DNA of 64,000 nt, from contig CM119271.1 in NCBI GenBank assembly GCA_051294375.1, positions 16,714,470-16,778,469 of the forward strand, in the 5' to 3' direction. Below the pieces are notes generated by a model. The model had not been told where the DNA came from. It was given only the letters and a program-made list of their open reading frames with translations, and did no database searches. A program made the position numbers and the translations under genes. This document shows, piece by piece, positions 8,700 to 61,369 of the stretch (position 1 is its first letter; every line of letters begins with the position of its first letter). This DNA is from Paraspadella gotoi. Its lineage: Eukaryota; Animalia; Chaetognatha.

Positions 8700-9157
8700 G
8701 AGAGAGATAAAGAGAGGGAATGTCGCCTTAGAAACGAAGGTAAGGTGAAAAGGATTTGGGTGAGTAGGTTAACTCAATTGACTGAAAATTTATGGCATCA
8801 TTCCATCTCTCTTTCTTTTTTTTACTTTTTTCTTTAGTTCTTTTTTTCTCTTTCTTTCTTCTTTTATTTCAACCAGTCAATCTTCATAAATCCGATCGTA
8901 GTAAAGAGAGAATAAGAACCAAATAAAAAAAATTAAGTTTAATAGATACATGAAATTAGTACACCAAATATAAAAATTATCCATTTATTTAATAAATGAA
9001 CTATCTGACTTTGGTGACCTGACTTTGGTGGTTTAAGGCCTTCAACACTCTTACAAGAAAATAACTTTTCCGGACTCTGCATGGCGAAGTTTCAAAGTAT
9101 AGAAATCGATTCAAAGTAAAAATGTTCACAGTCGTGAAATTAGTAGCTCAGTAATTA

Positions 9158-20974: not shown

Positions 20975-23900
20975 CTGAAGAATATCAAATCGTACAATAA
21001 CTTATAAATAATAACTAATTATTTTTTTAATAACTTTTAAAATCAACCTTGTTTGCGCATCCTTTCCAATTGCAGTAACTGCGTTTCCTTCTCGACCCCG
21101 GTTCAATTTTTTCTTCCTATTTTCAAAACATTATAATTTAATTTAAAATTTATTTAATTTTGATTTGAGGTTTAAATAAATAATAAATGTCTTGAAATTA
21201 AAAAATAATATATTTATCAGAAATTCTACAATTCACAAAAATCATATTTTTTTGGTTCACATCCTCTCACCTCTTTTTCATCTTCGTCTCCCTTGTGATA
21301 AAGCCAAAGGACATAAGCGGTTTCCAACATCGACAAGACAATGAAAACCAGGGATACGACCATCCAGATATCCATGGCAACCATGTAAGCTACCTGAATG
21401 GGACAAAATTTAGATTTAGTGTTTATGCTTTAATTTAAGAATAAGTCCTTTCGCTATCCTAATATTTAATCAATCTTGAACAAATGTCACGACCAATCAA
21501 TCACATTCAATCATAATTTCAATGAAATAAAATACACCCACAATTAAGATCGAATCGAGCTAAATGAAATAAATTTCGAATAATCAAACAATCAATAACA
21601 ATCATTGACGATCAATCACAAACAATCACACTCAACCATGATAAATTTGAACTAATCACAATCAATCACCACCAATGACAATCAACCACATATTATAACA
21701 ATGAATGACAATCAATAACTATCGTTCACAATCAATCACCACCAATCAAAATCAATCAATCAATCAATCAACCAACGCTCCTCTTCACAAAAAACCTTAG
21801 GCGACGCCTCCTTGGCGGCGTTCATGAACCCGATGGACGAGACCAAGCAAAGAGCGCCGTGAATGACCCTCGCCGGCGCCGCTGAGGGACTCAACCAGAA
21901 TCCCAGCCAAGACAACGCCGTCGAGGCAAAAGAAGGAGCGAAGACGTTGAAGAGAAAAAATCCGATTTCTCTTTTGAAAGTGAATTTGGCGCCGATGCAG
22001 GTAAAGCGGCCTGGAACAGGTGCAGGGACAGGTGTAGGGAGACGCGTAGGGATGGGGGCAGGAACAGGTGACGGGACAGGTGCAGGGACAGGTGCAGGGA
22101 CAGGTGCAGAGACGATGGAGGGGATGGGAGACAATCACTGTTCCAATCAATTATTCAAATACTCAATTATTCATGTTATGAAATTGGTACAACCAATATA
22201 AAAATTATCCATTCATTTAATAAATAAGCTATCTTGCCCCTGACTTTGGACAGGCTTTGGTGGTTTAAGGCCTCCATCACTCTTACAAGATAATGACATA
22301 GCAGGTCCCTGCAAGCTTTCAATCAAGACTCTCTCACAGTCTCGCCTATTCACTCCCAGATTACCTGGCTTCCCTATCAATGAAGTGGAAAATATTTCAA
22401 AGAATGTTTCAATTGTATGAAAAGACCACTCCCTTAAGTATTAGATCGGGGAATACTTATTGTACTCCGCACTAGCATCAAAATACAAGTCAAGTCATCA
22501 AAATACATGTCATTGTATAATATACAATATACAATATTGGAACAGTGATTGTCTCCCATCCCCTCCATCGTCTCTGCACCTGTCCCTTCACCTGTCCCGT
22601 CACCTGTTCCTGCACCCATCCCTACGCATCTCCCTACACCTGTCCTTGCACCTGTATATTATATTATAATATATTATACAATGTATATTATGTTATGTCA
22701 TGTCCATAACTCCTTATAAAAGTTACAAGATTACTTGTTTTACAAAGAAAAATCTTTTTGAAATATCAGAAAATAAATTTATTATTAGTTATCATGGGAA
22801 AAGTTTTTTGAGGGTAGATAAATGGCTGAGATACCAAGTGTCTTTCTTTTTATTTTTTTTAGAGAATGGCGATAGTTAATTAACTATTAAAGTTGATGTT
22901 AAAGTTAATGTTAATTAAATTTAAGGTTAAAGTTGTAAAGTTGTTGTTGTTGTTGTTGTTCAGACCGCTAGGTCATATATACGTAATGAGGGTCTTGTCA
23001 CAGTTATAAATTTGGTTCTTGTCGCGGGTCATTGCAACAAGTTCACTTAGTCTACCCGGATGAAACCTTCAGTCGTAACTCAGTGGCTCATTGAAGGCGG
23101 AACAAGGTAAAAACTAAGAGTTCTGTCATATTAATAACGTTAGAGCATCCCTGTGGGATAACGAAATTTAAAAAAAAATTAAGATTTTATGTATAGTTAA
23201 TAACATAGAAGCATTTAAAGTTCATCGTATTACTATAAATCATGAAAATTTTATATTTCAAATTCAAAATTTTTAAAAACGGATTCGGGTAGAGCTTGAA
23301 AAAATAAATAAAAAATATTATTACAAGAATTCACAATTTTTATGTTTTATTGGTTAAAATTAGCAAAAACTATAAAAATTATGGTATGATGATGATGATG
23401 ATGATTTTTATTTGACCCACTTATCATCGAAATATTGAAAAACGCATTATACTTTGTGGGCTATCTGAATCCGTTCTAAAAATAAAATTTAAAAAAAAAA
23501 AATTTTATTGCCTATGCATTTATAAATATTTAAATACTTCAATGTTATACAGTGCTTCACTAGTTATAAAAGTGATTGTAAATATTTATTAAGTATATGA
23601 TGGACAAATGAATTTTATACGACAGAATTTCTAATGATAAAAAGGGATCAAATTTAACCCGCCTTATTTAGTAATACCATCAGCTAATGACCATAACGTA
23701 ACAGGATCGATCCCCAATTGTACCGCGATCGATCCCCAATGGTACCGAGATCGATCCCCAATTGTACTACGTTCGATCCCCAATTGTACCATGATCGATC
23801 CCCAATTGTACCGAGATCGATCCCCAATTGTACCAAGATAGATCCCCAATTTTAACGAGATCGATCCCAATTGTACCGCGAACAATCCCCAATTGTACCA

Positions 23901-26177
23901 AGATCAATCCCCAATTGTACCACGTTCGATCCTCAATGGTACCACAATCGATCCCCAATTGTACCGTGATCGATCACAAATTGTACCGAGATCGATCCCT
24001 ATTTGTACCAAGATCGATCCCCAATTGTACCAAGATCGATCCTTAATTGTACCGCGATCCATTCCCGATGGTACCGCGATCGATCCCCAATGGTACCAAG
24101 ATCGATCCCTAATTGTACCGAGATCGATCCTCAATTGTACCGAGATCGATCCCTAATTGTACCAAGATTGATCCCCAATTGTACCGTGATCGATCCCCAA
24201 TTTTACCGTGATCAATCCCCAATGGTACCGGGATCGATCCCCAATTGTACCATGTTCGATCCCCAATGGTACTGCGATCGATCACCAATTGTAGCGCAAT
24301 TGATCCCCAATGGTACCGCGATCGATCCTCAATAGTACCGAGATTGATCCCCAATTGTACCACGTTCGATCCCCAATGGTACCGCGATCGATCCCCAATT
24401 GTACTGCGATCGATCAGCAATTGTACCAAGATCGATCCCCAATTTTACCGTGATCGATCCCCAATGGTACCGAGATCGATTCCCAATTGTACCGCGACCG
24501 ATACCCAATTGTACCGATATCGATCCCCAATGGTACCTACCCTACCTAAGCGTGAGGACACCCATTAACCACATTTGGGTTGAGGATAAACCCTCCGGTC
24601 GCAATTTCTTTCTTTTTTTTATTAACATAAACATTAACAAAAAACAGATTACGTCTTCTTGAACTCCTCCTGGTCCTGGGCTTGAAACCAGGCCGGGTGA
24701 ACTCTTTACAATGCCGACTACGTTTATAAGGTAATAAATACCCACATTTAAATTCATCTATACTAATTTGTACCTGTAGTATTGTAGCTCTTAGTACATT
24801 CTATTGTTTCAACATTGTCCAGCACGTGAGATGGGAAAGTCGTTTCTTCACGTACTTGCACAGGGTCTTCATCCGGGAATCGAAACACAACGTCATCCAT
24901 GTTGTAACCGTAAGATTCCATTTCAATTCCACATTTCTGTTACATTAAACGGTTTTGTCAGTTGAAGAATCACAGGTATATAATCAAAAGTATAATTTTG
25001 TTATAATTTATGTGAGATTTTACTTGTGAGTCAAATGGAAACATTGACAATTCCATTGAGCAAGATAAAGTCAAGGTGAACCTTTGACTGAGCAAAACTT
25101 CTCCGGTTCCTTTGATTCGAATGTATGTGTTTGGCTAATTAACAAAATTAACAAAATATGGAAATTCAAAAAAGCATCTTCAGTTTGCTATAAAATTTTT
25201 TAAAACAATAAAATTTTCAGAACGATTTTTTACATGGGTAACAATTTTCATACCATTTTCATACCTCCCTCTATTTTTTCCTATAAATTTCACAAAGAAA
25301 CCTGAGTGATTTTGTGAAGATTTCCTCGTTTTTCGTTTGAGAAAAACAAATCTGAATACCAGATTTTGTCCACGGATTTTGGAGGAACAATTATTGGTTT
25401 TGGATGCGTGTGTTCCAGCCTAGCGTCAACCCATTTTTGCCTAGAGAAAATTAGTTAATATATAACTAAAAACTTAAAATTTTAATTGCATATCTGTAGT
25501 CATTTGGTTAAATAAAACTCGTTTGTAAACAAAAACAAACTGGTTTAGTTCTAAAATTCTAACTAAAATTATTAAATTCTAATCTAACTCTCGAAAGTCC
25601 TAATGAGAAACTAAATCTGATCCGAATACTAACCTCGCACTTAATTTAAGTTTTGAATTAAATTCAATTATAATTTGAATTTATAAAAAGGTTTAAGTTA
25701 AAAGACCTCAAGAAAATGTCCATAGTGAATTCCATATTCGATTCTGAGATTGAATTCATGGAAGAAATAAAGAAATTGATGTTGACCGTGACTGGACGCG
25801 ATCCTTCGTTTGGACGAACACGAGCGTCGTAGATGCGCGGGTCTTGAACGTCAAAAATACGAGGCGAGGATTTAATTTTTATTTTATTTTATATCATATT
25901 AAATTTTTATTGGGTGAACGATTTTATTAAGCTAAAAAAATCATTGATCGGTTTTTGAAAGATTCATCAAAACAACCGTTGGATGAATTTATAGATTTGT
26001 TTATTTGTTTATTTATTTGTTTATTTGTTTACTTTTCATTAATTAAATTATTTATTATTTATTGACGACCATTGTGAACATACCGAGAATAGAATTCATG
26101 ATCTTTGTCGATTTTGATATTGAGGCTTCGCTCGGAGACGAAACAAAAAAGAAAACGAGAAAAAACAGCGGCGTCAT
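20873..26177 (-). CDS. Glycine-receptor-like Cys-loop ligand-gated anion channel subunit, 9 exons, 383 aa
   Basis: Exons 26177-26084, 25842-25707, 25440-25302, 25134-25024, 24936-24774, 22010-21796, 21393-21271, 21116-21048, 20974-20873. All introns are GT-AG with matching phases; total 1152 nt with no internal stop. Protein has a signal peptide (MTPLFFLVFFFVSSPSEA), YDARVRPN, DIFLRQKW, WYSDLFFSNEK, Cys-loop CSMELSMFPFDSQKC, second disulfide CTKSYNTTGRFTC, M1, the PAR anion motif, M3 (AMDIWM) and M4 (DVLSRILIP...FYW). Collinear with vertebrate GlyR alpha as recalled. Confidence 0.95.
21048..21116 (-). CDS. GlyR-like exon 8 (short M3-M4 loop)
   Basis: EEKIEPGSRRKRSYCNWKGCANK; aaatag| acceptor, |gttgat donor, phase 0/0. 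Confidence 0.75.
21271..21393 (-). CDS. GlyR-like exon 7 (M3)
   Basis: VAYMVAMDIWMVVSLVFIVLSMLETAYVLWLYHKGDEDEKE; attcag| acceptor, |gtgaga donor. Confidence 0.95.
21796..22010 (-). CDS. GlyR-like exon 6 (M1-M2)
   Basis: GRFTCIGAKFTFKREIGFFLFNVFAPSFASTALSWLGFWLSPSAAPARVIHGALCLVSSIGFMNAAKEASPK; 215 nt, with boundaries at the positions recalled for the vertebrate GlyR M1-M2 exon. Confidence 0.95.
22183..22460 (-). mobile_element. Interspersed repeat family A (~280 bp, twister-bearing, SINE/retrozyme-like)
   Basis: Related copies at ~3930-4130, 4375-4600, 8955-9060, 47820-48025; partial copies at 52820-52930 and 54400-54500. Confidence 0.8.
22230..22292 (-). ncRNA. Type-P5 twister ribozyme, family A (intact)
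   Basis: Minus strand: TATCTTGT-AA-GAGT-GA-TGGA-GGCCT-TAA-ACC-AC-CAAA-G-CCTG-TCCA-AA-GT-CAGG-G-GCAAGATA. P5 8 bp, P4 4 bp, T1 TGGA/TCCA, T2 AC/GT, conserved UAA and GA; predicted cut 22267/22266. Confidence 0.8.
23198..23548. mobile_element. Diverged foldback / MITE-like element in GlyR intron 5
   Basis: taacatagaagcatttaaa / tttaaatacttcaatgtta and aacggattcgggtag / ctatctgaatccgtt. Confidence 0.55.
23704..24538 (+). repeat. 22-bp minisatellite GATCGATCCCCAATTGTACCGA, ~38 units, in GlyR intron 5 (mirror 38500-39330)
   Basis: Unit read directly from the sequence. Confidence 0.95.
24774..24936 (-). CDS. GlyR-like exon 5 (loops B/F/C)
   Basis: KCGIEMESYGYNMDDVVFRFPDEDPVQVREETTFPSHVLDNVETIECTKSYNTTG; taacag| acceptor, |gtacaa donor. 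Confidence 0.95.
25024..25134 (-). CDS. GlyR-like exon 4 (loop E, first half of Cys-loop)
   Basis: PNTYIRIKGTGEVLLSQRFTLTLSCSMELSMFPFDSQ; aattag| acceptor, |gtaaaa donor. Confidence 0.95.
25302..25440 (-). CDS. GlyR-like exon 3 (loops D/A)
   Basis: QKWVDARLEHTHPKPIIVPPKSVDKIWYSDLFFSNEKRGNLHKITQ; ctctag| acceptor, |gtttct donor. Confidence 0.93.
25707..25842 (-). CDS. GlyR-like exon 2
   Basis: DPRIYDARVRPNEGSRPVTVNINFFISSMNSISESNMEFTMDIFLR; ttcaag| acceptor, |gtcttt donor. Confidence 0.92.
26084..26177 (-). CDS. GlyR-like exon 1 (signal peptide)
   Basis: ATG at 26177, MTPLFFLVFFFVSSPSEASISKSTKIMNSIL, donor G|gtatgt. Confidence 0.85.
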
Positions 26178-26540
26178 TACGAAACAGTTTTGATCTTAAA
26201 ATTTAATGATTAAAAAAAATTAAAACATATTTTATTATTATCTGTTGTCAGGTAGCGCAGATGCATTTATATATAGCGATGTAATTTTTTTATGATAAAA
26301 AAAGGCATTTTTAAAGTGAAGTCATTTAAGATATACATTTCTCCATTCACTTAATTGAAAATGAATGTTTGCCGATAAAAATATTTAGACGGGCGACCGA
26401 GTTATTAAAAATTAACAACAAGAACAATCAGTTACTTAATTTGATTCAGTTATACTTTTTCACCATTGTCATACATGTAAAACAGCAATTGTAACAGAAG
26501 TAGTGATGTGATACACAAATTGGCAAAGACTATTTCTCTT

Positions 26541-26661
<121 letters not shown>

Positions 26662-26854
26662 CGATGTCTTAACTCGATTTCTTTGACAACGGAAATTTGA
26701 TTAGACTTTTAACATAAGCGACGAGAATGACCGGTTTCTTCATGAAAGTAGATTTTGTAGTTATGGGAAAGTAGAGTCATTTTTTTAGATAAAATTGGCT
26801 AATATAAATACAAAAATTGATACATCTCACTGTTTCTTTTGCTGTTCTCTCTCT

Positions 26855-26945
<91 letters not shown>

Positions 26946-27186
26946 CTCCTCTCTCTTTTCTCTCTCTCTCTTTCTCTCACTCGTCCCCCTTTGCCTCTCA
27001 CCCTATCGACTAAAGTAAATCTACTCAAGAAACTGTAATCTCATTTACATATTGCAGTAGTTAATCATGTTTTTATAATTCAAATCAAGTCACGGCCTTT
27101 CGTTGACTTTTTGTTAACCTTTTGATCTCCTAAATTCCGATTCGATTTTAGGAAAATTTGAATCACAAAAATCTTATTGTTTGTTG

Positions 27187-27265
<79 letters not shown>

Positions 27266-27389
27266 GGTTTAAGTTTAACACTCCAGCAACCGTTTACGCT
27301 CGGACAAAACGACTTCAGTAGGGTGACAGGTGGACAGGGTGACAGGGAACCTGGGTGAGATGAGTTTGGGGGGCTGAGGTTTAAGAAAA

Positions 27390-27450
<61 letters not shown>

Positions 27451-28761
27451 GATAAGAAAATAAATAAAATAATTGGGATAAGATTTAGAGAGAGACCTAA
27501 AGATAGTTGATAGGCGAGAAAGAGAAAGAGGCATATCTTATAATTTTTATATACAAACTAAATATGATCTTAAACTTATAAACTAATAAAATAATAGTTC
27601 CAAACCTTCATTGTAGGAATATCTAGAACTCCAAACGATGGAATAGAATGGAATCGAATGAAATCGCATGGAACCGTATTAACTTAATTTTAAACCTAAT
27701 CTTAATCTAAAAAAATTAACCTAATTTCAATTTTAAGATAAAATGGGGCGTTCTGAGAAAATAAGGCCGAAACGGCTTTCTCCCAATTTATTTTTTTTTT
27801 ATTCTTTGTCTCTCGAAATTCTTTCTTCGAGAAAATTGCGTCACGCAGCCGCCGAAGCTGCCGCTGTTCAGCCGCTGCAGCTGCCAATGTAGCCGCAGCC
27901 GCCGCCTCAGAAGCCGTCAGAGCAGCCGTCACAGCAGCCGTCACAGCAATGGCAACGGACAACCTTTGGGGCGACTGTCACCGTTGTTGTTGTTGTTGTT
28001 GTTGTTTTTGTTGTTTTTGTTGTTTTTGTTTTTGTTGTTGTTTTTTTCGTTAGAAAAAGAGAAGAAGAGAAGAAGAAGAAAAGATAAGAAGAAGAAGAAC
28101 AACAACAACATCGACGACGACGACAACAACGACGACAACAAGGACGACGACGACGGCTGCAGCTTAAATCCTTCGTTGTCGCCTCCTGGCGGAAGAACTT
28201 TTGACCCAAACCGAATTATTGCGTCGCGGGAACAAAAGGGAAATAGTCGACGACGACGACGACGATGATGACGACGATGACGACGAAGGACAATAATGAC
28301 GACAATTAAGACGAAAAAGATATCGATGAAGAAATGACAGACAACGATGTAAGTGATGACAATGATGAAAACGCTGACAACGACGACGACGACGACAAAG
28401 TCAACAATGATGAAACGACGACGACGATGACGACAACGACAAAAAAGACATTGAATTAGGAGAGAGCAAAATCTCTTCTCTCTTTCCCTCTAAACCAATC
28501 AGCGCTCAAAATCCCTTGACCAATCATTTTCTATTTATAATTACATCTCCTTCCTTCACCAATCAATGAAAAAAAAATGCGCTCCCAGTCACGGGTTCGA
28601 ACCCGGTCCAAGGTTTGAACCCGGTCCAGGGTTCGTAACCGATTCCTTTGTCCGCCGAGGATATCCGCCTGACTCATGAAGCATAACTGACCTCGTGTTG
28701 ACCTTAAGGCAAAGCCGTGATGATGCTTGGCCGCTGGAGGGAAGAGAGAGAGAGAGAAGAA

Positions 28762-28827
<66 letters not shown>

Positions 28828-29377
28828 GGAAAAGAGAGAAGATACAAGATACAATGAAAGAAGTGTCGCTTGAAAAAAAAAGGAAAAAAAGACATGAAAA
28901 TGAAAAATATGAAAAAATAATAAAAAAGAAAAAAAAGAAAAGAAAAGAAAGGAAAGGAAGAGACAAAAATAGAAAAGAAAAGAAAACGAAGAAAATGGAA
29001 AATTCCAAAAAGAAGAAACAGCCTCAAGAGATAAATGATTGGCTTGAGTAACATTTCTTTTTTCTTTCAAATGCGAATTGGATGATGAATATAAAGTGAA
29101 TGGTTTAATGAGATGGAGGATTGGGTGAGTAGTTAACGGTTAAACAAAAAACTGATGATTCATTCATAAATAATTGATTGATAGATAGATTGAATAATTT
29201 GTTTAATGATTGACTTATTAAATGATAACTTGACTAATTCAAAGACTGATTTATCTGTTTTTATTGATTGGTTGATTGTTTGTATGATTTATTAGTTATT
29301 TATTATTCAATAGATCGANNNNNNNNNNNNNNNNNNNNNNNNNTCGCTTAATTCATTTTTGGGTAGATTGGTTGGAC

Positions 29378-31040
29378 AGGGGGGAGAAAGTAAGTCTAGG
29401 GCAGGGGGAAAAGTGGGCGAGGGCAGGGGGGAAAATGGGCTTAATGGCAGGGGGGAAAGTTTTGGCAAGGGCAAGGGGGAAGTGGGTTAAGGGGAGGGGG
29501 GGAGAAGTGGGCAAGGTCAGGCGGAGAAGTGGGTAAGGGAGGGGAGGAAGTGGGCTAGGGCAGGGGAGGAAAGTGGGCAGGGTAGGGGGAAAGTGGGCTA
29601 GGGCAAGGGAAGAAGTGGGCTAAGGCAGGGTGAGGAAGAGGGCTAGGGCAGGGGAAAAGTGGGCTAGGGCAGGGGGAAAAGTCGGCTAAGGGCAGAGAGA
29701 AGAATGGGTAAGGGCAGGGGAGTTAAGTGGGCTAGGGCCAGGGGGAGAAGTTCGGTAAGGGCATGGGAGGAAGTGGGCTAGGACAGGGGGAAAGTTTTGG
29801 CAAGGGCAGGGGGAAGTGGGCTAGGGCAGGGGGAAAAGTGGGTAAGGGCAGGGAGGAAGTGGGGCTAGGAGCAAGAGGAGAAATGGGCTAGGGCAGAAGA
29901 GGAAGTGGGGCTGAGCAGAGGAGGAGTGGGCTAGGGCAGAGGAGGAAGTGGGCTAGAAGCAGAGAGGAAGTGGGCTAGGCAGAGGAAGGAAAGTGGGCTA
30001 GAGCAGAGGAGGAAGTGGGCTAGAGCAGAGGAGGAAGTGGGCTAAGCAGAAGGAGGAAGTTTGGCTAGGCAGAGGAGGAAGTGGGCTAAGAGCAAGAGGA
30101 GGAAGTGGCTAGGGCAGAGGAGAAGTGGGCTAGAGCCAAAAAAAAAAAGAAGGGAGGATGTGGGTCTAGGGCAAGAGAGGAAGTTGGGCTAGGGCAAAGG
30201 AGGAAGTGGGCTAAGGGAGAGGAGGAAGTGGGGGGCTAGGGCAAAGAGAAGGAAGTGGGCTAAGAGGCAGAGGAGAAAGTGGGCTGGGCAGAGGAGGAAG
30301 TGGGCTAGGGCAGAGGAGAAGTGGGGCTAGGGCAAGAGAGGAAGCTGGCTAGCAGAGAGGAAGTGGGCTAAGGGCAGAAGGAAGGAAGTGTGCTAGAGCA
30401 GAGAGGAAGTGGGCTAGGGCCAGAAGAGGAAGTGGAGATGAGGGCAAGGCAGAGCGAAGTGGCTAGAAGCAGAGGAGGAAGTGGGCTAGGGCAAGGAGGA
30501 ATGGGCTGAGCAAAGGAGGAAGTGCGGCATAGGGCAAAGAGGAGAGTGGGCTAGGCAGAGGAGAAGTGGAGCAGGAAGGTAGAGCGGCGAGGAGGCAGGA
30601 AGTTGGCAGAAGAGAAAGGCTAGGGCAGAGGAGGAAGCTGGCATGAGAGAGGAACCAGAGAGAGGAAGTGGCTAGGGCAGAAGAAGGGTAAGCTAGGAGA
30701 CTGGCATGCAGGGAGGGAAGGGGCTAGGGCAGAGAGGATGAAGTGGCTAGTGCCTAGGAGAAGGGCTAAGCAGAGGAGGAAAGTGGGCTAGGCAGAGGAG
30801 GAATGGGCTAGGGCAGAGGAAGGAAGTGGCCAGAGGCAGAGGAGGAAGTGGTAGGCAGCGAGGAGAAGTGGGCTAGGGGCAAGGGAAGGAAGGGCTAGGG
30901 CCGAAGAAAGAAGTGGGCTAGAAGCAGAGGAAGGAAAGGGCTAGGCGTGGGGCTAGGCAGAGGAGAAAGTGGGCTAGGGCAGAGGAGAAGTGGAGGCGAG
31001 GAGCAAAGGGCAAGTGGGCAGGAGAGGGAGAGTGGGACTG
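29378..31040 (+). repeat. ~22-bp G-rich minisatellite GGGCTAGGGCAGAGGAGGAAGT (mirror 32080-33695)
   Basis: Unit read directly; G-tracts are longer at the left end. Confidence 0.95.
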
Positions 31041-34000
31041 GGGTATGCGGTTAAAGCGAAGGGAAGATTTCGCTCCAAACAAACAGAGATGAGAAAGGAT
31101 TTCAGGGAAACAAGAAATTTTTTCCACAACGGCGGCACTGCCCACACAAGAGAGATGAGGGAGAGAGAGAAGACAAAGAGGAGAAGGCGAAGAAAAGAGA
31201 GAGAGAGAGAGAGTGAGAGAAGAGAGAGGCAAGAGAGAGAGAGAAAGAAGTGAAGAGAAAGAGCGGAGAAATAGATATGAGAGAAAAGGAATTAAGAAGA
31301 GAGAGAGGAGAACGATAGAGAAGAAGAGAGAGAGAGGAGAGGAGAGAGAGAAGAGAGAATCAGGTTGCTTTCTCTTTTATTTTTTTTTTCCATCTCTCTC
31401 CTTTCCATTATTCGTATTAGGCGGGAAAATCTCTTAAAAAAATCAGTGAGCATAATGATGCTGGTTTTTGGTTGTCAGCCATTTTTCTCCTTTTTCTTAG
31501 CTCCTTTTTTTCCTCCTCCTCCTCCCTCCTCCTCCTCCTCCTCCCCTCTTTTATTCCTGGCTAGGGCAGAGGAGGAAGTGGGCTAGGGCAGAGGAGGACG
31601 GTTTCTAAGCGAAGGGAAGATTCGACAAACAAACAGAGATGAGAAAGGATTTCAGGGAAACAGTTTTTCCATTACGCGGCCACACAGAGAGAGAGGGAGA
31701 GAAGCAACCTGATTCTCTCTTCTCTCTCTCTCTCTCCTCTCTCTCTTCTTCTCTTCTCCTTTTATCGTTCTTCTCTCTCTTCTCTTCTTTAAAAATTTTT
31801 CCTTTTTCTCTCTCTTCTATTTCTCCACTCTTTCCTCTCTCACTTTCTTTCTTCTCTCTCTCTCTGGCCTCTCCTCTCTCTTTCTCATCTCTCTCTCTCT
31901 CTCTCTCTCTTTCTTCCCTCTCCTCTTTATTCTTTCTCTCTCCCTCATCTCTCTGTGTGTGGAAGAGTGCGCGCCCGTGATGGCAAAAAAACTTGTCTTG
32001 TTTCCCTGAAATCCTTTCTCATCTCTTGTTTGTTTGGAGCGAAAATCTTCCCTCGCTTTAGAAACCGTCATTGTATCCCTTCCTCTTGCAGTCCCACTTC
32101 CTCCTCTGCTCCTAGCCCACTTCCTCTTCTGCCCTAGCCCAATTCCTCCTCTGCCCTAGCCCACTTTCTCCTCTGCCTAGGCCTACTTTCCTTCCTCTGC
32201 TTTCTAGCCACTTCCTTCTTCTGCCCTAGCCACTTCCTCCTGCTGCCCTAGCCCACTTTCCTCGGCTGCCCTAGCCCACTTCCTCTCTGCCCTAGGCCCA
32301 CTTCCTTCCTCTGCCCTAGCCCACTCCTCCTCCTGCCCTAGCCCACTTCCTCCTCTGCATCTAGGCCCACTTCCTCCTTCTGCCCTAGCCCCATTCCTCC
32401 TCTGCTCTAGCCCACTTCCTCTTTTTGCCCTAGCCACTTCCTCCTCTGCCCTATGCCACTTCCTCCTCTGCCCTAGCCCCACTTCCTCCTCTGCCCTAGC
32501 CCACTTCTCCTCTGCCCTAGCCCACTTCCTCTTTGCCCTATGCCCACTTCCTCCTTTCTGCTCTGCGCCCACTTCCTCCTCTGCCCTAGCCCACTTCCTC
32601 CTCTGCTTCTAGCCCACTTCCTCCTCTTGCCCTAGCCCACTTCCTCCTCTGCCCTAGCCCACTTCCTCTCTGCTCTAGCCCACTTCCTTCCTTCTGCCCT
32701 TAGCCCACTTCCTCTCTGCTAGCCAGCTTCCTCTCTTGCCCTAGCCCCACTTCTCCTCTGCCCTAGCCCACTTCCTCCTCTGCCCAGCCCACTTTCTCCT
32801 CTGCCTCTTAGCCCACTTCCTTCTCTTTGCCCTAGCCCCCCACTTCCTCCTCTCCCTTAGCCCACTTCCTCCTTTGCCCTAGCCCAACTTCCTCTCTTGC
32901 CCTAGACCCACATCCTCCCTTCTTTTTTTTTTTGGCTCTAGCCCACTTCTCCTCTGCCCTAGCCACTTCCTCCTCTTGCTCTTAGCCCACTTCCTCCTCT
33001 GCCTAGCCAAACTTCCTCCTTCTGCTTAGCCCACTTCCTCCTCTGCTCTAGCCCACTTCCTCCTCTGCTCTAGCCCACTTTCCTTCCTCTGCCTAGCCCA
33101 CTTCCTCTCTGCTTCTAGCCCACTTCCTCCTCTGCCCTAGCCCACTCCTCCTCTGCTCAGCCCCACTTCCTCTTCTGCCCTAGCCCATTTCTCCTCTTGC
33201 TCCTAGCCCCACTTCCTCCCTGCCCTTACCCACTTTTCCCCCTGCCCTAGCCCACTTCCCCCTGCCCTTGCCAAAACTTTCCCCCTGTCCTAGCCCACTT
33301 CCTCCCATGCCCTTACCGAACTTCTCCCCCTGGCCCTAGCCCACTTAACTCCCCTGCCCTTACCCATTCTTCTCTCTGCCCTTAGCCGACTTTTCCCCCT
33401 GCCCTAGCCCACTTTTCCCCTGCCCTAGCCCTCTTCCTCACCCTGCCTTAGCCCACTTCTTCCCTTGCCCTAGCCCACTTTCCCCCTACCCTGCCCACTT
33501 TCCTCCCCTGCCCTAGCCCACTTCCTCCCCTCCCTTACCCACTTCTCCGCCTGACCTTGCCCACTTCTCCCCCCCTCCCCTTAACCCACTTCCCCCTTGC
33601 CCTTGCCAAAACTTTCCCCCCTGCCATTAAGCCCATTTTCCCCCCTGCCCTCGCCCACTTTTCCCCCTGCCCTAGACTTACTTTCTCCCCCCTGTCCAAC
33701 CAATCTACCCAAAAATGAATTAAGCGATCGATCTATTGAATAATAAATAACTAATAAATCATTACAAACAATCAACAGATCAATTAAAAAACAGATAAAT
33801 CAGTCTTTGAATTTAGAAGCTTATCATTTAATAAGTCAATCATTAAACAAATTATTCAATCTATCTATCAATCAATTATTTAGAATGGGATCATCAGTTT
33901 TTTGTTTAACCGTTAACTACTCACCCAATCTCCATCTCATAAACCATTTCACTTTATATTCATCATCCCAATTCGCATTTGATAAGAAAAAAGAAATGTT

Positions 34001-34213
34001 ACTCAAGCCAATCATTTATTCTTTTGAGGCTGCTTTCTCTTTTTGGAATTTTCCATTTTCTTCGTTTTCTTTTTCTTTACTATTTTTGTCTCTTCCTTTC
34101 TTTCTTTCTTTTCTTTTTTTTCTTTTTTATTATTTTTTCATATTTTTCATTTTCATGTTTCTTTTTTTTCCTTTTTTTTTCAAGCGACACTTCTTTCATT
34201 GTATCTTGTATCT

Positions 34214-34298
<85 letters not shown>

Positions 34299-35633
34299 TC
34301 CCTCCAGCGGCCAAAGCATCATCACGGCTTTGCCTTAAGGTCAACACGAGGTCAGTTATGCTTTCATGAGTCAGGCGGAATATCCTCGGCGGACAAAGGA
34401 ATCGGTACGAAAACCCTGGACCGGCTCTTCAAACCCTTGGACGGGTTCGAACCCGTGGGACTGGAAGGCGCATTTTTTTCATTGTTTGGTGAAGGAAGGA
34501 GATGTAATTATAAAATAGAAAATGATTGGTCAAGGATTTTGAGATGGCTGTTGGTATAGAGCGGAAAGAGAGAAGAGATTTTGCTCTCTCCTTAATTCAA
34601 TGTCTTTTTGTCGTTGTCGTCATCGTCGTCGTCGTTTTCATCATTGGTTGACTTTGTCGTTCGTCGTTCGTCGTTGTCAGCGTTTTCATCATTGTCACAC
34701 TTTACATCGTTTGTTCTGTTCATTTCTTCATCGATATCTGTTTTAGTCTTAATTGTCGTCATTATTAGTCCTTCGTCATCATCGTCGGTCGACTTCGTTC
34801 TCAGCTTCGTCGTCATCATCGTCGTGTCGTCGTCGACTATTTCCCTTTTGTTCCGCGACGCAATAATTCGGTTTGGGTCAAAATGTTCTTCCGCCAGGAG
34901 GCGACAACGAAGCGATTTAAGCTGCAGCCGTCGTCGTCGTCCTTGTTGTCGTCGTTGTTTCGTGTCGGTCGATGTTGTTGTTTGTTCTTCTTCTTTCTTA
35001 TCTTTTCTTCTTTCTTCTTCTTCTTCTTCTTTTTCTAACGAAAAAAAACAACAACAAAAACAAAAACAACAACGGTGACAGTCGCCCAAGGTTGTCCGTT
35101 GCCATTGCTGTGTACGGCTGCTGTGACGGCTGCTCTGACGGCTTCTGAGGCGGCGCTGCGGCTACATTGGCATCTGCGGCGGCTGAACAAGCGGCAGCTT
35201 CGGCGGCTGCGTTGACGCATTTTCTCGCCCTAGAAAGAATTCGAGAGACAAAGAATAAAAAAAAAATAAAATTGGGAGAAAGCCGTTTCGGCCTTATTCT
35301 TTCTCAGGAAGCCCCCATTTTAAATCTTAAATTTGAAATTAGGTTAATTTTTTTAGATTAAGATTAGGTTTTAAAATTAAGTTTAATACGGTTCCATGCG
35401 ATTTCATTTCGATTCCATTCTTTCCATCGTTTGGAGTTCTAGAATTCCTACATATTGAAGGTTTGGAACTATTATTTTATTAGTTTTATCAGTTTAAGAT
35501 CATAATTTTAGTTTGTATATAAATTATAAGATATGCCTCTTTCTCTTTCTCGCCCTAATCAACTATTTTTAGGTCTTTCCTAAATCTTATCCCCAATTAT
35601 TTTATTTATTTCTTATCGTTCTCTCTTCTCTCT

Positions 35634-35673
<40 letters not shown>

Positions 35674-35833
35674 TTTTCTAAACCTCAGCCCCCCAAAACT
35701 CATCTCCACCCAGGTTCCTGTCACCCTGTCCACCTGTCACCTACTGAAGTCGTTTTGTCCGAGCGTAAACGCGTGCTTGGAGTGTAAACTTAAACCGTCA
35801 TCTCTCTCTCTCTCTCTCTCTCTCCTCCTCTCT

Positions 35834-35869
<36 letters not shown>

Positions 35870-36415
35870 ACCACAACAAACAATAAGATTTTTGTGATTT
35901 CAAATTTTCCTAAAAAATCCGAATCGAATTTAGGAGATCAAAAAGGTAACAAAAAGTCAACGAAGGCCGTGACTTTGATTTGAATTTATAAAACATGATA
36001 TTAACTACTGCCAATTAGTAAATGAGATTTACAGTTTCTTGAGTAGATTACTTTAGTCGATAGTGTGAGAGCACAAGGACGATGTGAGAGAGGAAAGTAG
36101 AGATAGGAAAGAAGAGAAGAGAAGAGAGAGAGGAGACGAGAGAGACGAGGAGAGAGAGAAGAGAGGAGAAAGAGAGAGAGAAAAGAGAGAGAGAGGGAAA
36201 GCAAAAGAAAACAGTGAGATGTAATCAATTTGTATTTTAAATTAGCCAAAAAAAAATGACTCTACTTTCCTAACTACAAATCTACTTTCATGAAGAAACC
36301 GGTCATTCTCGTCCTTTATGTTTAAAAGTCTAATAAATTTCGTTGTCAAAAGGAAATCGAGTTAAGACATCGACTGAGAGAGAGAGACGAGAGAAGAGAG
36401 AAGAGAGAGAGAAGA

Positions 36416-36450
<35 letters not shown>

Positions 36451-36841
36451 CGAGAGAAAGAGAAAAAGTCTTTGCCAATTTGCTGCTATCACATCACTAC
36501 TTCTCGTTTACAATTGCTGTTTACATGTATGGGACAATTGGTGAAAAGTATAAACTTGAATCAAATTTAAGTAAACTGATTGCTTCTTGTTGTTAATTTT
36601 TAATAACTCGGTCGCCCGCTCTAAATATTTTTATGGCAAACATCATTTTTCAATTAAGCTGAATGGAGAAATGTATATCTTAAATTGACTTTTCACTTTT
36701 AAAAATGCCTTTTTTATCATTAAAAAAAATTACATCGCTATATATAAATGCATCTGCCGCTACCTTGACAAACAGATAATAATAAAATATGTTTTAATTT
36801 GTTTTTAATCATTACATTGTTAAGATCAAAACTGTTTCGTA

Positions 36842-38268
36842 ATGACGCCGCTGTTTTTTTCTCGTTTTTTTTTTGTTTCGTCTCCGAGCGGAAGCCTCAA
36901 TATCAAAATCGACAAAGATCATGAATTCTATTTCTCGCCGTATGTCACATGTCGTCAATAAATAATAAATAATTTAATTAATGAAAAGTAAAACAACAAA
37001 TAAATAACAAATAAACAAATTCTATAAATTCATCCAACGGTTGTTTGATGAATCTTTTCCAAAAACCCGATCAATGATTTTTTTAGCTTAATAAATCGTT
37101 CACCCAATAAAAATTAATTATGATATAAATAAAATAAAAATTAAATTTCTCGCCTCGTATTTTTGACGTTCAAGACCGCGCATCTACGATCGCTCGTGTT
37201 CGTCGCGTCCAAACGAAGATTCGCGTCCAGTCACGGTCAACATTCCAATTTCTTTATTTCTTCATGAATTCAATCTCAGAATCGAATATGGAATTCACTA
37301 TGGACATTTTCTTGAGGTCTTTTTTAACTTAAACCTTTTTATAATTTCCAAATCTATAATTGAATTTTAATTCAAAACTTAAAATTAAGTGCGAGCGTTA
37401 GTATTCGGATCAGATTTAGTTTCTCATTAGGACTTTTCGAGAGTTAGATTAGAATTAAAAAATTTTAGTTAGAATTTTAGAACTAAACCAGTTTGTTTTT
37501 GTTTTACAAACGAGTTTTATTTAACCAAATGACTACAGATATGCAATTAAAATTTTTAAGGTTTTTAGTTTATATATTTAACTAATTTTCTCTAGGCAAA
37601 AATGGTGTGACGCTAGGCTGGAAACACACGCATCAAAAACCAATTAAAGTTGTTCCTTCCAAAATCCGTGCACAAATATGGTATTCAGATTTGTTTTCAA
37701 ACGAAAAACGAGGAAATCTTCACAAAATCACTTCAGGTTTCTTTGGTGAAATTTATAGGGAAAAAATAGAGGGAGGTATGAAATGGTATGAAATTGTTAC
37801 CCATGTAAAATCGTTCTGAAAATTTATTGTTTTAAAAAACTTATAGCAAACTGAAAGATCCTTTTTGAATTTCCATATTTTGTTAATTTTGTTATTAGCC
37901 AAAACACATACATTCGAATCAAAGGAACGGAGAAGTTTTGCTCAGTCAAAAGGTTCACCTTGACTTTATCTTGCTCATGGAATTGTCAATGTTTCCATTT
38001 GGACTCACAAGGTAAAATCTCACATAAATTATTTAACAAAATTATACTTTTGATTATATACCTGTGATTCTTCAACTGACAAAACCGTTTAATGTATACA
38101 GAAATGTTGGAATTGAAATTATCTTTACGGTTACAAACATGGATTGACCGTTGTGTTTCGGATTCCGGATGAAGACCCTGTGCAAGTACGTGAAGAAACG
38201 ACTTTCCCATCTCACGTGCTGGACAATTTGAAAACAATAGAATGTACTAAAGCTTACAATTACTACAG
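36842..38268 (+). pseudogene. Inverted, frameshifted copy of GlyR-like exons 1-5 (probably an assembly artefact)
   Basis: Reverse complement of 24774-26177 including introns, with many 1-nt indels; lacks the transmembrane exons. Confidence 0.85.
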
Positions 38269-41200
38269 GTACAAATTATATAGAATGAATTTAAATGTGG
38301 GTATTTATTACCTATAAAACGTAGTCGGCATGTTGTAAGAGTTCACCCGGCCTGCGTTTCAAGCCAGGACCAGGAGGAGTCAAGAAGACGTAATCTGTTT
38401 TTTGTTAATGTTTTATGTTAATAAAAAAAAGAAAGAAATTGCAGACCGGAGGGTTTATCCTCAACCCAATGTGGTAGGGTGTCTCACGCTTAGGTAGGGT
38501 AGTACCATGGGATCGATACGGTTACAATGGGTATCGTCGCGCGGACAATTGGGGAATCGATCTCGGGTACCATTTGGGGATCGATCACGGTAAATTGGGG
38601 ACTCGATCTTGGTACAATTGCTATCGATCGCAGTACAATGGGATCGATCGCTGTACCATTGGGGATCGAACGTGTACAATTGAGATCAATCTCGGTACAT
38701 TAGGATCGATCGCGGTACATTGGGATCAATTGCGCCTACAATTGGTGATTCGATCGCGTACCATTTGGGGATCGAACATGGTACAATTGGGGATCGATCC
38801 CGGTACCATTGGGGATTTGATTCACGGTAAAATTGGGGATCGATCACGGGTACAATTGGGATCAATCTTAGTTACAATTAGATCGATCTCGGGTACCATT
38901 GAGGATCGATCTCGTACAATTAGGATCGACTTTACCTGAGATCGATCGCGGGTCCATCGGGAATGGATTCGCGGGGTACAATTATAGGATCGATCTTGGT
39001 ACAATTGGGGATCGATCTTTGGTACAAATAGGGATCGATCTCGGTACAATTTTGTGATCGATCACGGTACAATTGGGACGATTGTAGGTACATTGAGGAT
39101 CGACGTGGACAATTTTGGGGTGATCGATCTTTGCGTACAATTGGGGATGTTCGCGTTACAATTGGATCATCTCGGTAAAATTGGGGATCTTATTTGGTTA
39201 CAATTGGGGATCGATCTCGGTACAATTGGGGATCGATCATTGGTACAATTGGGGAGTCGAACGTAGTACAATTGGGGAATCGATCTCGGTACCATTTGGG
39301 GGATCGAGTCGCGGTACAATTTGGGATGATCCTGGTTAGGTTTATTGGTCATTAGCTGATGGTATTACTAAATAAGGCGGGTTAAATTTGATCCTTTATC
39401 ATTAGAAATTCTTGTCCCGGTCCTTTTTTACATCGATTTACTCGGCATGGGAGTGCACAAGATGAGATGTCCGGGATACGTTCCGGACCTTGGGCTACAA
39501 AAAAAGGTGTAATCAAATTTTCCTCTAATGACAGTTTTTTTTATAAATTATTAATTGCTATATATAAATCAATAAAGTAGTAAAAAAAATTTAAAATGTT
39601 TAAATTTTTTTAAAATGAAAAATATCCATGCATCATCCATAATCTATGACAATTACTTTCGTTTGAGGTCTACCTTATTCTATTCTTTAATAGTTTATGT
39701 AATTTAATTTTTCTTTATTAAAATATTATTTTAATTTTTTTTTCAAATAATTTAATTAAAAAAAATTATACTATGACCAAATGATTGAAGAAATTTTATA
39801 TTATAAGGGGATTACCTACCTGAATATAGGCCTTCAATATACATATATTAGTAAGTTTTTATAATGATGTTTTGACATAGAAAATAAAATAATTTATAAA
39901 AATTAATATATGAAAAAATTTTAACTTTTGAATTTTTTTTAGCATAATAAACATTAATTTATTAATTAATTGTTCATGATTGCTTTAATAGCTATGGTCA
40001 GTATGTATCATTCTCAATTTATAATTAATTTTATAACTTTTTTTTATTTTTTAGTAATACTGACTGCTATATTTACTTACTTTTGACAAAATCCAAAATT
40101 ACTGCGTATTTTAAAAATTATGTATGAAACATAACGAAAAATTTTTTTTAAATCACTGCTATTTAATTGTTTGAAACTGATATAATATATCCTTGGACAA
40201 AATTTAAAAAGTTTTAAAACAATCCCAACTAGACATTTTTAAGGTTGTCCAAATGTATTAAATATTTGATATCGGACTGCTTTGTAGGTTTTAAACTTAA
40301 TTTCAGTAGCCTCTTTAATATGACAGAAAAGCAGTATTTTAACAGTTTTTTCTATTTGGAGGTGGGCCATCAAAGTACTAACACATATTAACATCAGTAT
40401 TATTTGTTAAGTATAGTAGATTTCTCTATAGATTTTTATTTTTGAAAACGTTTTACTTTTTTTTCTATAATTTTTCTTGAACGACAAAAACGTTTTTTGA
40501 TTACCGAAAGATGGAATGTAAAAATTAAATAAATAGTACCATATAGTTAGATTGTATGTCTAAGAATAGATGAAAAAAAAAACCTGTTTAAAAATTTGAT
40601 CGGGAAGTTGGAACTAAGGCTTACCAACGGTATCCTTCATGCTGATCGTTTCTCTCCTTATTATTTTTTTTTAATTTAATACATTGAAAGTGGGAAAAAA
40701 AGAAAATTCAGAATTTCAGGTGGCTAAAGGGTAGAGAAAATGTACATAGTGACTGATTATAATTTGACCTTTTTGTCTTGCGTAAATGGGGGCGTAAAGA
40801 AACCTTAAAAAATGCAATCATAAGTCAGTCAATTGAACCCTTTTCACGAATTTTTTTTTTCTTTAATTAAAATGGATGATAATAATAGAATTTAAATTCC
40901 CTTTATTAAGGTTGGTTATATTTAAAAGAAAATTATCAATACAATTCAACACAATGATGTCTTGCTTTTGTCAAATATTGTCAGGCAGTTAAGTTAATTT
41001 AAAAATTTTATTATTGATAAAAGCAGTATATCAGCTTTTTCTTTGCAGTTTAAAGATAATGAAAATGATTATTTTTTTTTCACAGACAAGGAAGGTAGAC
41101 GTCCAACTGTTTATATCAAGCTGAAAACATTTATTATTTTATCAATTTTTATATTTAAAAAAAATTTTATCAAGGCTACTACAAATTTTTTGGCTTGTTT

Positions 41201-47320: not shown

Positions 47321-47819
47321 GGGAAAAGGCCTTGGCGCCGCACGAGAGCGAGGCTGGGAGTCCTCGTCGTTGTTGTTGTTCTCGATCTTGGTATTATTTT
47401 GTCGTTGTTGTCCGGTTGTTGTTGTTGTTGTCGTGGATGTCGTCGTCTTCTTTTTCGATGTCATCGTCTAAGCGTCNNNNNNNNNNGAGAGATAAAGACA
47501 AAGAGACAGAGACAGAGAGAGTGATAGAAAAAGTGAGAGAAAGATAGAGAAAGAAAGACAGAGAGACAGATACAGAGAGAGTGAGAGAAAGAGAGAGTGA
47601 GAGAAAGAGAGAGACAGTGACAGAGAGAAAGAAGGAGACATTCCGCTTAATGGAAGTTTTCTCTTCCAGTGAAAAATATTTCCAAGTTTCCGTCGACTTG
47701 TTGTTGTTGTTGTTGTTGTTGTTAATTTTCGTTTTTTGATTTTGTTGCTTTTAGTTTCAATACTTTGTTTTTTCTTTTCTTTTATACACTTTATATTTTA
47801 TGACTATTTTTAGCTATTA

Positions 47820-48025
47820 AATTAATACAACCAATAAAAAATTATACATTTATTCAATAAACGAGCTATCTTGCCCCTGACTTTGGACAGGCTTTGGTGG
47901 TTTAAAGCCTCCATCACTCTTACAAGATAATGACATAGCAGGTCCCTGCAAGCTTTCAATCAAGACTCTTTCACAGTCTCGTTTATTCACTCCTAGAGTA
48001 CCTGACTTCCCTATTAATGAAGTGG
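47820..48025 (-). mobile_element. Family A copy
   Basis: Near-identical to 22183-22387. Confidence 0.8.
47867..47929 (-). ncRNA. Type-P5 twister ribozyme, family A (intact)
   Basis: Same as 22230-22292 except the linker is GGCTT. Confidence 0.78.
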
Positions 48026-48102
48026 TTTAATATTTATTTATTTATATAATTTATTTTTATTTGCTATTTGTTATTTTTTTTCTAATTTTAAGAGCAGAAA
48101 GA

Positions 48103-52556: not shown

Positions 52557-52588
<32 letters not shown>

Positions 52589-53929: not shown

Positions 53930-53967
<38 letters not shown>

Positions 53968-54742: not shown

Positions 54743-54775
54743 CCTTCCTCCCTCTCTCTCTCTCTCGTCTCTTCT

Positions 54776-54809
<34 letters not shown>

Positions 54810-55538: not shown

Positions 55539-55679
55539 GGTGGACTAAAATCCACCAACCGTTCATCAGCGGTCATTGGTGCCGGAGGAAAGTCATTCGC
55601 CTCCCAACCCAAAGGTGCGCCAAGCAGTTAAGAGGGACGGGGCGCTTAACCCGCCTGTAACACGGTGTTACAGCCTGAT
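55539..55679 (+). mobile_element. Family C copy
   Basis: ggtggactaaaatccacc...aagcagttaagagggacggggcgcttaacccgcctgtaacacggtgttacagcctgat. Confidence 0.75.
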
Positions 55680-56838: not shown

Positions 56839-56995
56839 TCAAATTAAGTCGCNNNNNNNNNNNNNNNNNNNNNNNNNTAAACTGCGGCGCTAAACCTTTG
56901 CGGACCTGAGTTGAGGAAGCGCAGTCCTTTGCATTCATCGTCGTTATTATGATAAACGCAATCTTTGGATGCTGGAGGGCTTGTCTCTGTCGTGA

Positions 56996-57031
<36 letters not shown>

Positions 57032-58369: not shown

Positions 58370-58441
<72 letters not shown>

Positions 58442-61312: not shown

Positions 61313-61369
<57 letters not shown>

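What the first reader, a model, noticed from the sequence alone, without database searches (positions are those of the whole stretch)
22011..22655. Sense-strand ribozyme inside a 120-bp RNA clamp at the 3' splice site of the channel's pore exon
Seen: in the minus-strand pre-mRNA the order is arm 22655-22536, intact sense twister (cut 22267/22266), arm 22147-22016, AG acceptor 22012-22011, then the M1-M2 exon. The downstream arm itself supplies the pyrimidine tract. Inference: self-cleavage would sever intron 5, but the duplex would hold both halves together. This could permit splicing across a break, act as a kinetic switch, or mask the acceptor. The intronic CPEB3 ribozyme is a known analogy. 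It could equally be neutral nesting of transposons.
Basis: partly seen in the sequence, partly recalled or inferred. Interest (0 to 1): 0.8.

Follow-up and report, generated by a model that had tools for sequence, protein, structure and literature searches.

The report
Twister retroelement inside chance intron hairpin
A copy of a very abundant 324-base repeat carrying a predicted self-cutting "twister" RNA sits in an ion-channel intron between two mirror-image stretches that likely came from a separate copying accident, so the layout is likely not a splicing device, though the repeat itself looks like a twister version of the self-cutting RNA parasites (retrozymes) known in animals.

Summary
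The layout is real. The arms (22536-22655, 22016-22147) differ by 4 mismatches and one 12-bp unit and appear in short-read contigs of three samples from two studies. The acceptor AG 22012-22011 is used: one contig joins exons 5, 6 and 7. The twister core keeps every catalytic base and both pseudoknots, but scores below Rfam's cut-off, and its P1 is a loop-less palindrome. Cleavage is untested.

The ribozyme is not special to this gene. It belongs to a 324-nt repeat with 5 copies in the window, probably about 10^4 genome-wide, with a fixed 3' end and head-to-tail tandems. The upstream arm looks like a local inverted copy dropped into an AT-rich palindrome. Two other samples hold the repeat here but show no trace of that arm. 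Neutral nesting is the best reading (0.75); a selected clamp is unlikely (0.07).

The more interesting object is the repeat: retrozyme-like, but with a type-P5 twister instead of a hammerhead, possibly cutting as a dimer. Five literature searches found no such family. The scan noted a P5 twister in a mobile element of another genome before.

The parts
24774..24935 (-). Exon 5 of a Cys-loop ligand-gated ion channel gene (donor GT at 24773-24772; upstream edge approximate)
   Evidence: tblastn with relatives; its 3' end is the loose end of the spliced contig
22011..24773 (-). Intron 5, 2763 nt
22536..22655 (-). Upstream arm: inverted copy of the intron's 3' end, 120 nt, inside an AT-rich near-palindrome; likely polymorphic
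   Evidence: junction contigs in X1, X3, X5; not seen in X6, X8; palindrome test
22176..22489 (-). Nearly full monomer (314 of 324 nt) of a high-copy, retrozyme-like interspersed repeat, 38% GC
   Evidence: depth, loose ends and tandem joints; copies; GC
22230..22292 (-). Type-P5 twister-like ribozyme; predicted cut 22267/22266; loop-less palindromic P1 at 22273-22268
   Evidence: family variants
22016..22147 (-). Downstream arm: native intron end made of degenerate 12-nt units; C-rich pyrimidine tract; only YTRAY branch-like motif of the last 200 nt at 22150-22146
   Evidence: nearly invariant in X6 (0 differences) and X8 (1)
22011..22012 (-). 3' splice acceptor AG of intron 5, used in vivo
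   Evidence: spliced contig in X7
21796..22010 (-). Exon 6 (end of the ligand-binding domain, M1, M2)

Best explanation
A sense-strand copy of a very abundant 324-nt repeat with a twister-type core sits near the end of intron 5, and an inverted copy of the intron's own last 130 bases, likely made by a separate local template-switch accident, lies just upstream, so the predicted clamp is likely a neutral by-product and not a splicing device. Shown: both arms, the repeat's boundaries, dispersal and tandems, the core pairings, and splicing at this acceptor in one sample. Inferred: the repeat spreads like an animal non-LTR retrozyme (tandem transcript, twister cut, circle or multimer, reverse transcription from a fixed 3' point with 5' truncation, by a borrowed enzyme). 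Inferred: the lone intronic copy cuts slowly or not at all, because its P1 palindrome cannot close as a hairpin and can mispair with P4, whereas two tandem copies could pair their palindromes, as Penelope-type and amphibian hammerheads do. Inferred: the upstream arm came later and is still segregating.
For: Repeat: summed contig depth over the core is about 3.1e6 against 98 on unique sequence in X1, 4.8e6 against about 180 in X3, 8.6e5 against 13.7 in X5 (the tool warns this is no copy number, so order of magnitude only); 503 contigs in X1 leave the element at 22176-22178 into unlike flanks; depth falls toward the 5' end; head-to-tail joints 22489 to 22176 with 10 letters between, in 8, 5, 2 and 0 contigs of X1, X3, X5, X9. 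Five copies in 64 kb, so sense-strand intronic copies should be common. Within the ribozyme only two places vary in 10% or more of depth: 22281 (the P2 bulge) and 22237 (G.U to A-U in P5), so this copy is the family consensus. The cut lies about 90 nt inside the fixed 3' end, so copies holding a whole ribozyme need an uncut, multimeric or circular template (inference). Arm: its sequence occurs only at these two places in the window; removing it, with the short shared bases kept once, restores a perfect 20-bp palindrome (3 of 551 same-size windows and 2 of 2000 shuffles reach this). X6 and X8 each give one unbroken contig 21783-22200 through the downstream arm into the element, with no second-arm contig, while X5, same study and same depth as X6 (13.7), breaks at 22055 like X1 and X3. 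X7 holds a 1620-nt contig joining exons 5-6-7 with no intron cover at 22023-22158.
Against: Absence of the arm in X6 and X8 is read from low-depth contigs (12-14x); assembly clean-up could have removed the second branch, and I never laid these runs on the upstream site itself. The arms differ at 4 of 120 bases plus an indel while the downstream arm hardly varies among samples, which could mean the arm is old. The genotype of the sample with the spliced contig is unknown, so splicing in an arm carrier is not shown. P1 is dispensable and P1/P2 flaws are well tolerated in natural twisters (PMC5408937, PMC11662667), so the lone copy may well cut; fast intronic ribozymes lower splicing (Fong 2009 as cited in PMC10919898), which would give a clamp something to do. 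The palindrome test is post hoc: a first try with the junction set 2 nt differently gave 14 bp, reached by 14 of 561 windows. No circle, ribozyme end or partner retrotransposon was observed.
Confidence: 0.75

Rival explanations
1. Accidental but not silent: the arm is an unselected allele that changes channel mRNA output in carriers, by hiding the pyrimidine tract and the branch-like A, or by holding a cut intron together.
For: Predicted pairing covers the intron from about -137 to -6; unpaired probability of the last 40 nt drops from 0.33 to 0.08. The only YTRAY motif of the last 200 nt has its A at the duplex's inner end.
Against: No RNA data from a known carrier. Carriers exist in 3 of 5 informative DNA samples from two studies. 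Equilibrium folds ignore co-transcriptional protein binding and unwinding.
Confidence: 0.12
2. Selected clamp: the twister cuts intron 5 and the duplex holds both halves so that splicing or re-ligation proceeds; the arm was kept because it rescues or tunes the channel.
For: The geometry is right: cut 119 nt before the downstream arm and 256 nt before the acceptor; core fully paired; engineered ribozyme-cut intron halves are re-joined in cells (StitchR, passages of PMC13685140).
Against: Samples X6 and X8 seem to carry the ribozyme copy's 3' junction without the arm. The arms show mismatches, not compensatory pairs. The ribozyme equals the family consensus. No conservation data support it.
Confidence: 0.07
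3. The arm arose together with the element's insertion (template jump onto the downstream flank during reverse transcription) and was later deleted on some chromosomes, or the motif is a decayed twister that no longer cuts in any context.
For: The arm lies 46 nt from the element's 5' end; long inverted repeats are deletion-prone (general knowledge). The active fold is not the predicted minimum and the Rfam score is below the cut-off.
Against: The arm is separated from the element by host-like AT-rich sequence that mirrors the far flank (I10). Both pseudoknots carry compensatory changes against the Rfam consensus and the core is nearly invariant across the family.
Confidence: 0.06

Closest known systems
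Metazoan non-LTR retrozymes (Cervera and de la Pena 2020, PMC7229834; passages read)
   Same: Short non-coding monomer in the 150-450 bp range, GC below 45%, tandem and dispersed copies, very high copy number (axolotl about 120,000 motifs), one self-cleaving motif per monomer.
   Different: They carry type I hammerheads; this carries a type-P5 twister and no hammerhead core motif. Circular RNA is shown for them and untested here.
Penelope-associated and amphibian hammerheads that cut as dimers (PMC6765202 section 11; PMC7229834 passages)
   Same: A stem next to the cut is reduced to a short palindrome that cannot close well alone; copies occur in tandem.
   Different: Different ribozyme class; P1 of twister is reported to be dispensable, so dimer dependence is only a hypothesis here.
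Twister ribozyme type P5 (Rfam RF02684; review PMC5408937, passages) and twister variants of Schistosoma Perere-3 / RTE elements (PMC8501958, PMC7761336; passages)
   Same: Same core, two pseudoknots, catalytic G and A; association with non-LTR retroelements.
   Different: Perere-3 variants sit at the 5' end of a coding element with the target duplication beside the cut; here the motif is internal to a non-coding monomer, permuted at P5, with a loop-less P1 and 3-bp P2.
Intronic CPEB3 HDV-like ribozyme (PMC10919898, passages)
   Same: Sense-strand self-cleaving motif in an intron upstream of an exon.
   Different: [quoted passage not shown]
StitchR ribozyme-activated trans-ligation (engineered; PMC13685140 passages citing Lindley 2024, not read)
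   Same: Ribozyme ends inside an intron that a cellular ligase could join before splicing.
   Different: Engineered, two transcripts, no natural clamp; nothing shows it happens at this locus.

Membership tests
Twister ribozyme, type P5 | Stems P2 and P4, termini in P5 | tested here: met
   P5 8/8, P4 4/4, P2 3 pairs with one bulged or mismatched A
Twister ribozyme, type P5 | Two pseudoknots (3 bp L1-L4, 2 bp L2-L4) | tested here: met
   3/3 and 2/2 Watson-Crick, each with a compensatory change against the Rfam consensus
Twister ribozyme, type P5 | Conserved catalytic G and U|AA at the cut | tested here: met
   G22278, A22277, U22267, A22266, A22265
Twister ribozyme, type P5 | Stem P1 closed by a loop | tested here: not met
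   AGG/CCU with zero loop; no monomer hairpin, self-duplex -9.1 kcal/mol. P1 is reported dispensable (PMC5408937)
Twister ribozyme, type P5 | Rfam gathering score 37.6 bits | tested here: not met
   25.8 bits; second copy 25.2 bits
Twister ribozyme, type P5 | Site-specific self-cleavage | not testable with these tools
   No raw RNA reads; contigs cannot show RNA ends
Metazoan non-LTR retrozyme | 150-450 bp low-GC monomer in tandem and dispersed copies | tested here: met
   324 nt, 38% GC, tandem joints and dispersed flanks
Metazoan non-LTR retrozyme | Type I hammerhead in each monomer | tested here: not met
   No hammerhead core motif on either strand; no Rfam hammerhead match. It works like one at most; not filed as a member
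Metazoan non-LTR retrozyme | Expressed as linear and circular RNA monomers | not testable with these tools
   Only contigs were available
Metazoan non-LTR retrozyme | Mobilised by a Penelope-like or LINE partner | not tested
   No genome held; fixed 3' end and 5' fall-off in depth fit reverse transcription
tRNA-type SINE | Pol III A and B boxes | tested here: not met
   No match to simple recalled A/B box patterns on either strand; a crude test
Domesticated intronic ribozyme (CPEB3 type) | Single-locus motif conserved across species | tested here: not met
   Family-consensus copy of a very high-copy repeat; other species not available
Domesticated intronic ribozyme (CPEB3 type) | Blocking the ribozyme changes spliced mRNA | not testable with these tools
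   Needs an experiment
Cys-loop ligand-gated ion channel (host gene) | Homology of ligand-binding and M1-M4 exons | tested here: met
   GlyR E 2e-12; exons 2-9 map to relative P0024

The most novel reading that the evidence does not exclude
A natural 'cut-and-clamp' intron: the twister severs intron 5 in vivo, and a newly arisen, still segregating inverted arm holds the halves so that they are spliced across the break or re-ligated, which rescues or tunes a chloride-channel-like transcript in carriers. Arm-plus and arm-minus animals would then be a ready-made natural experiment on whether intron continuity can be replaced by base pairing.
Probability: 0.07. Interest if true: 0.8.

Novelty: new variant of a known kind. 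Interest (0 to 1): 0.42.

Why it matters
The clamp itself most likely does not matter. The repeat does, moderately: animal retrozymes are described with hammerheads only in the papers I could read, so a high-copy family built on a permuted twister would show that the retrozyme life cycle does not depend on the ribozyme class. If its loop-less palindromic P1 makes cutting depend on a neighbouring copy (my estimate 0.3), twister would have converged on the dimer gate of Penelope-type hammerheads, which would explain how a genome tolerates many sense-strand copies in introns. Both points are cheap to test in vitro. The apparent presence/absence of the arm also offers a natural test of splicing across a cut or masked acceptor.

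Tried and rejected
Whole-genome search: no genome held. Rfam at gathering threshold: nothing; the other weak matches lie on microsatellites and were ignored. The search for homologous proteins with the 72-aa exon against longer proteins: 33 candidates, none significant. Exact scans for the twister core: 0 in metagenome contigs, 0 in viral contigs; these collections hold little animal DNA, so this says nothing on other species. No RNA holder was listed among 9 runs, which is no evidence on expression; X9, guessed RNA, covers intron sequence and was too shallow to score the arm. The empty-site joint of the arm was not among the 15 joints shown (274 not shown). Idea that the arms are a long-read fold-back artefact: rejected, they lack single-base indels and stand in short-read contigs. 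Idea that the downstream arm is coding (it reads in frame as a Pro-rich repeat): rejected, no AG lies in it and the spliced contig enters at 22010. The supplement of PMC11662667, which lists tested twisters from crustaceans and other groups, could not be read; it may already hold this motif. Earlier scan notes by sequence and place: none.

Full report
Observation. On the minus strand the order is arm 22655-22536, twister-like motif, arm 22147-22016, AG 22012-22011, exon. The arms are 120 and 132 nt, with 4 mismatches and one 12-nt unit missing from the upstream arm. The region folds at -358 kcal/mol (z -23; 0 of 20 shuffles). The exon resembles glycine and GABA-A receptor M1-M2 (E 2e-12). Relatives map exons 2-9 on the minus strand and a signal-peptide-like ORF starts at 26177, so intron 5 (24773-22011, 2763 nt) is correctly named. 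The last 125 nt of the intron have no AG and are 75% pyrimidine, 27% U.

Reality in independent data. Nine runs of one organism hold the stretch; I laid 7. X1 may be the assembly's own sample. Contigs cross the upstream arm's outer junction in X1 (22616-22817) and X5 (22616-22795); X3's has only 27 letters inside the arm, too few to count. X3 shows the arm in another way: a 52-nt contig on 22096-22147 at depth 332 against 164-176 beside it, and a loose end at 22147 that equals 22535-22506. So the inverted repeat is real in three samples of two studies. X6 and X8 each give one unbroken contig from 21783 through the downstream arm to 22200, with 0 and 1 differences, and no contig of a second arm. 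X5, same study and the same depth as X6, breaks at 22055, where the shared sequence begins. I infer that the arm is missing or rare in those two samples (about 0.65): the runs are shallow, contigs show presence better than absence, and I did not lay them on the upstream site. In X1 the arm-specific contigs have depth 46-57 against 98, which may mean one chromosome of two, or a library bias against hairpins.

Splicing. X7, recorded as a guessed DNA run, holds a 1620-nt contig at depth 275 that covers 21794-22013 and runs on into exon 5 (24777-24806) and exon 7 (21362-21391), with no cover at 22023-22158. This is a spliced transcript using the stated acceptor. Whether that sample carries the arm is unknown, and contigs drop rare forms.

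The ribozyme. Rfam gives Twister-P5 at 22281-22239, 25.8 bits, under the 37.6 cut-off. Checked by coordinate, P5 has 8 of 8 pairs, P4 4 of 4, the 3-bp and 2-bp pseudoknots are fully Watson-Crick, each with a compensatory change against the Rfam consensus, and the catalytic G and U|AA are present. Two features are unusual. P2 has 3 pairs and a bulged or mismatched A. P1 is the palindrome AGGCCU with no loop: no hairpin alone, -9.1 kcal/mol as a two-molecule duplex. Without pseudoknot terms the active fold (-9.7) lies above a fold (-16.2) in which the palindrome's 5' half pairs with P4. A rough sum for two copies that pair their palindromes is -28.5 against -32.4, so dimer pairing would close about two thirds of the gap. 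Against dimer dependence: P1 is dispensable (PMC5408937, passages), and natural twisters tolerate P1 and P2 flaws while being sensitive at pseudoknots and catalytic bases, with about 94% active (PMC11662667: abstract, passages, sections 33 and 35; supplement unreadable). I put catalytic competence in some context at about 0.8 and fast cutting of this lone copy in vivo at about 0.3.

The repeat. The motif lies in a repeat with five copies in the window (22176-22489, 47815-48035, 4375-4611, 8950-9081, 3954-4115); three keep the P4/L4 core. Summed contig depth on the core exceeds unique depth about 31,000-fold in X1, 27,000-fold in X3 and 63,000-fold in X5. The tool warns that this is no copy number; I take it as order 10^4. 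In X1, 503 contigs leave the element at 22176-22178 into unlike flanks, depth falls toward the 5' end, and 8 contigs join 22489 back to 22176 with 10 letters between (5 in X3, 2 in X5, 0 in X9), giving a 324-nt monomer. Inside the ribozyme only 22281 (the P2 bulge, 13% in X1) and 22237 (G.U to A-U in P5, 23% in X1) vary in 10% or more of depth, so the intronic copy is simply the family consensus. The cut lies about 90 nt inside the fixed 3' end; copies with a whole ribozyme therefore need an uncut, multimeric or circular template (inference). This anatomy matches animal non-LTR retrozymes, 150-450 bp low-GC tandem repeats expressed as circles and probably moved by Penelope-like elements (PMC7229834, passages), except that those carry type I hammerheads. 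Hammerheads with short palindromic stems that cut as dimers are known from Penelope elements and amphibians (PMC6765202, sections 11-12; PMC7229834). Twisters are known at the 5' end of RTE-type elements (PMC8501958 and PMC7761336, passages). Searches returned 2, 12, 17, 2 and 3 papers; I read parts of seven of them (PMC6765202, PMC7229834, PMC7761336, PMC10085705, PMC8501958, PMC11662667, PMC5408937) and saw no twister-based retrozyme and no natural palindromic-P1 twister. The rest I saw only as listings. Roth 2014, Lunse 2017, Fong 2009 and Lindley 2024 were not read.

Origin of the arm. Its sequence occurs only at these two places in the window. Its flanks mirror each other (pair I10). Removing it while keeping the few shared junction bases once restores a perfect 20-bp palindrome (3 of 551 windows, 2 of 2000 shuffles). 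A first try with the junction 2 nt off gave 14 bp (14 of 561), and the final placement was chosen after seeing the palindrome, so the test is post hoc. The pattern fits a template-switch insertion at a hairpin-prone AT-rich site (general knowledge).

What the clamp would do. In a carrier the duplex (-253 kcal/mol) would pair the intron from about -137 to -6; mean unpaired probability of the last 40 nt is 0.08 with and 0.33 without the arm. The cut is 119 nt before the downstream arm and 256 nt before the acceptor, a few seconds at the mammalian rate of 3.5-4.1 kb/min quoted in PMC10919898, so the duplex would usually form before any cut and would bridge a later one. That is physically sound, and engineered ribozyme ends in introns are re-joined in cells (PMC13685140, passages). 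But nothing points to selection: the ribozyme is a consensus repeat copy, five copies per 64 kb make sense-strand intronic copies common, the arms differ by plain mismatches, and the element seems to occur here without the arm. CPEB3's ribozyme is conserved across mammals and sits 9931 nt before its exon (PMC10919898), a different situation.

Verdict. Neutral nesting of a twister-bearing, retrozyme-like repeat and a local inverted duplication, 0.75; unselected allele with an effect on splicing, 0.12; selected clamp, 0.07; other, 0.06. The repeat is a new variant of a known kind, not filed as a retrozyme because it lacks the hammerhead and circles are untested. Interest 0.42.

Noticed in passing
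window 23624-31374 and 31697-39412: A 7.7-kb inverted duplication holding exons 1-5 of the channel gene; 675 gap positions against 186 mismatches and frameshifted exon copies on the plus strand. Looks like an uncorrected fold-back long read, an assembly artefact; not checked with reads.
   Followed up: partly
window 54718-57472 / 58348-61429 (inverted) and 51675-53237 / 53258-54794 (direct): Two more large duplications with the same indel-rich pattern; likely long-read artefacts too.
   Followed up: partly
window 3954-4115 and 4375-4611: Two copies of the twister repeat in opposite orientation about 260 bp apart; the plus-strand copy has changes at the cut and in the 2-bp pseudoknot. May be an inverted-end insertion or two events.
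   Followed up: no
window 47815-48035: Second well-kept copy (91% identical, Twister-P5 25.2 bits); its P1 reads AGGCUU, no longer a perfect palindrome.
   Followed up: partly
window 23058-23333 and 23518-23600: Other high-copy repeats in intron 5 (summed depth 1e4 to 1e5), plus a 22-bp minisatellite at 23705-24537.
   Followed up: no
window 21796-22010: The channel is divergent: identities among the 150 listed representatives are at most 50%. M2 keeps a PAR motif (anion-selective, recalled) but seems to lack the usual 6' Thr and 9' Leu (numbering recalled, not checked).
   Followed up: no
window 21760-22134: The downstream arm reads in frame with exon 6 as a Pro-Ala-Pro-Val repeat, but no acceptor makes it exonic.
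   Followed up: yes
window 22169-22200, run X7: The spliced-RNA run also holds three contigs matching the repeat's 3' end, two of them with flanks from other loci, a weak hint that copies are transcribed.
   Followed up: no
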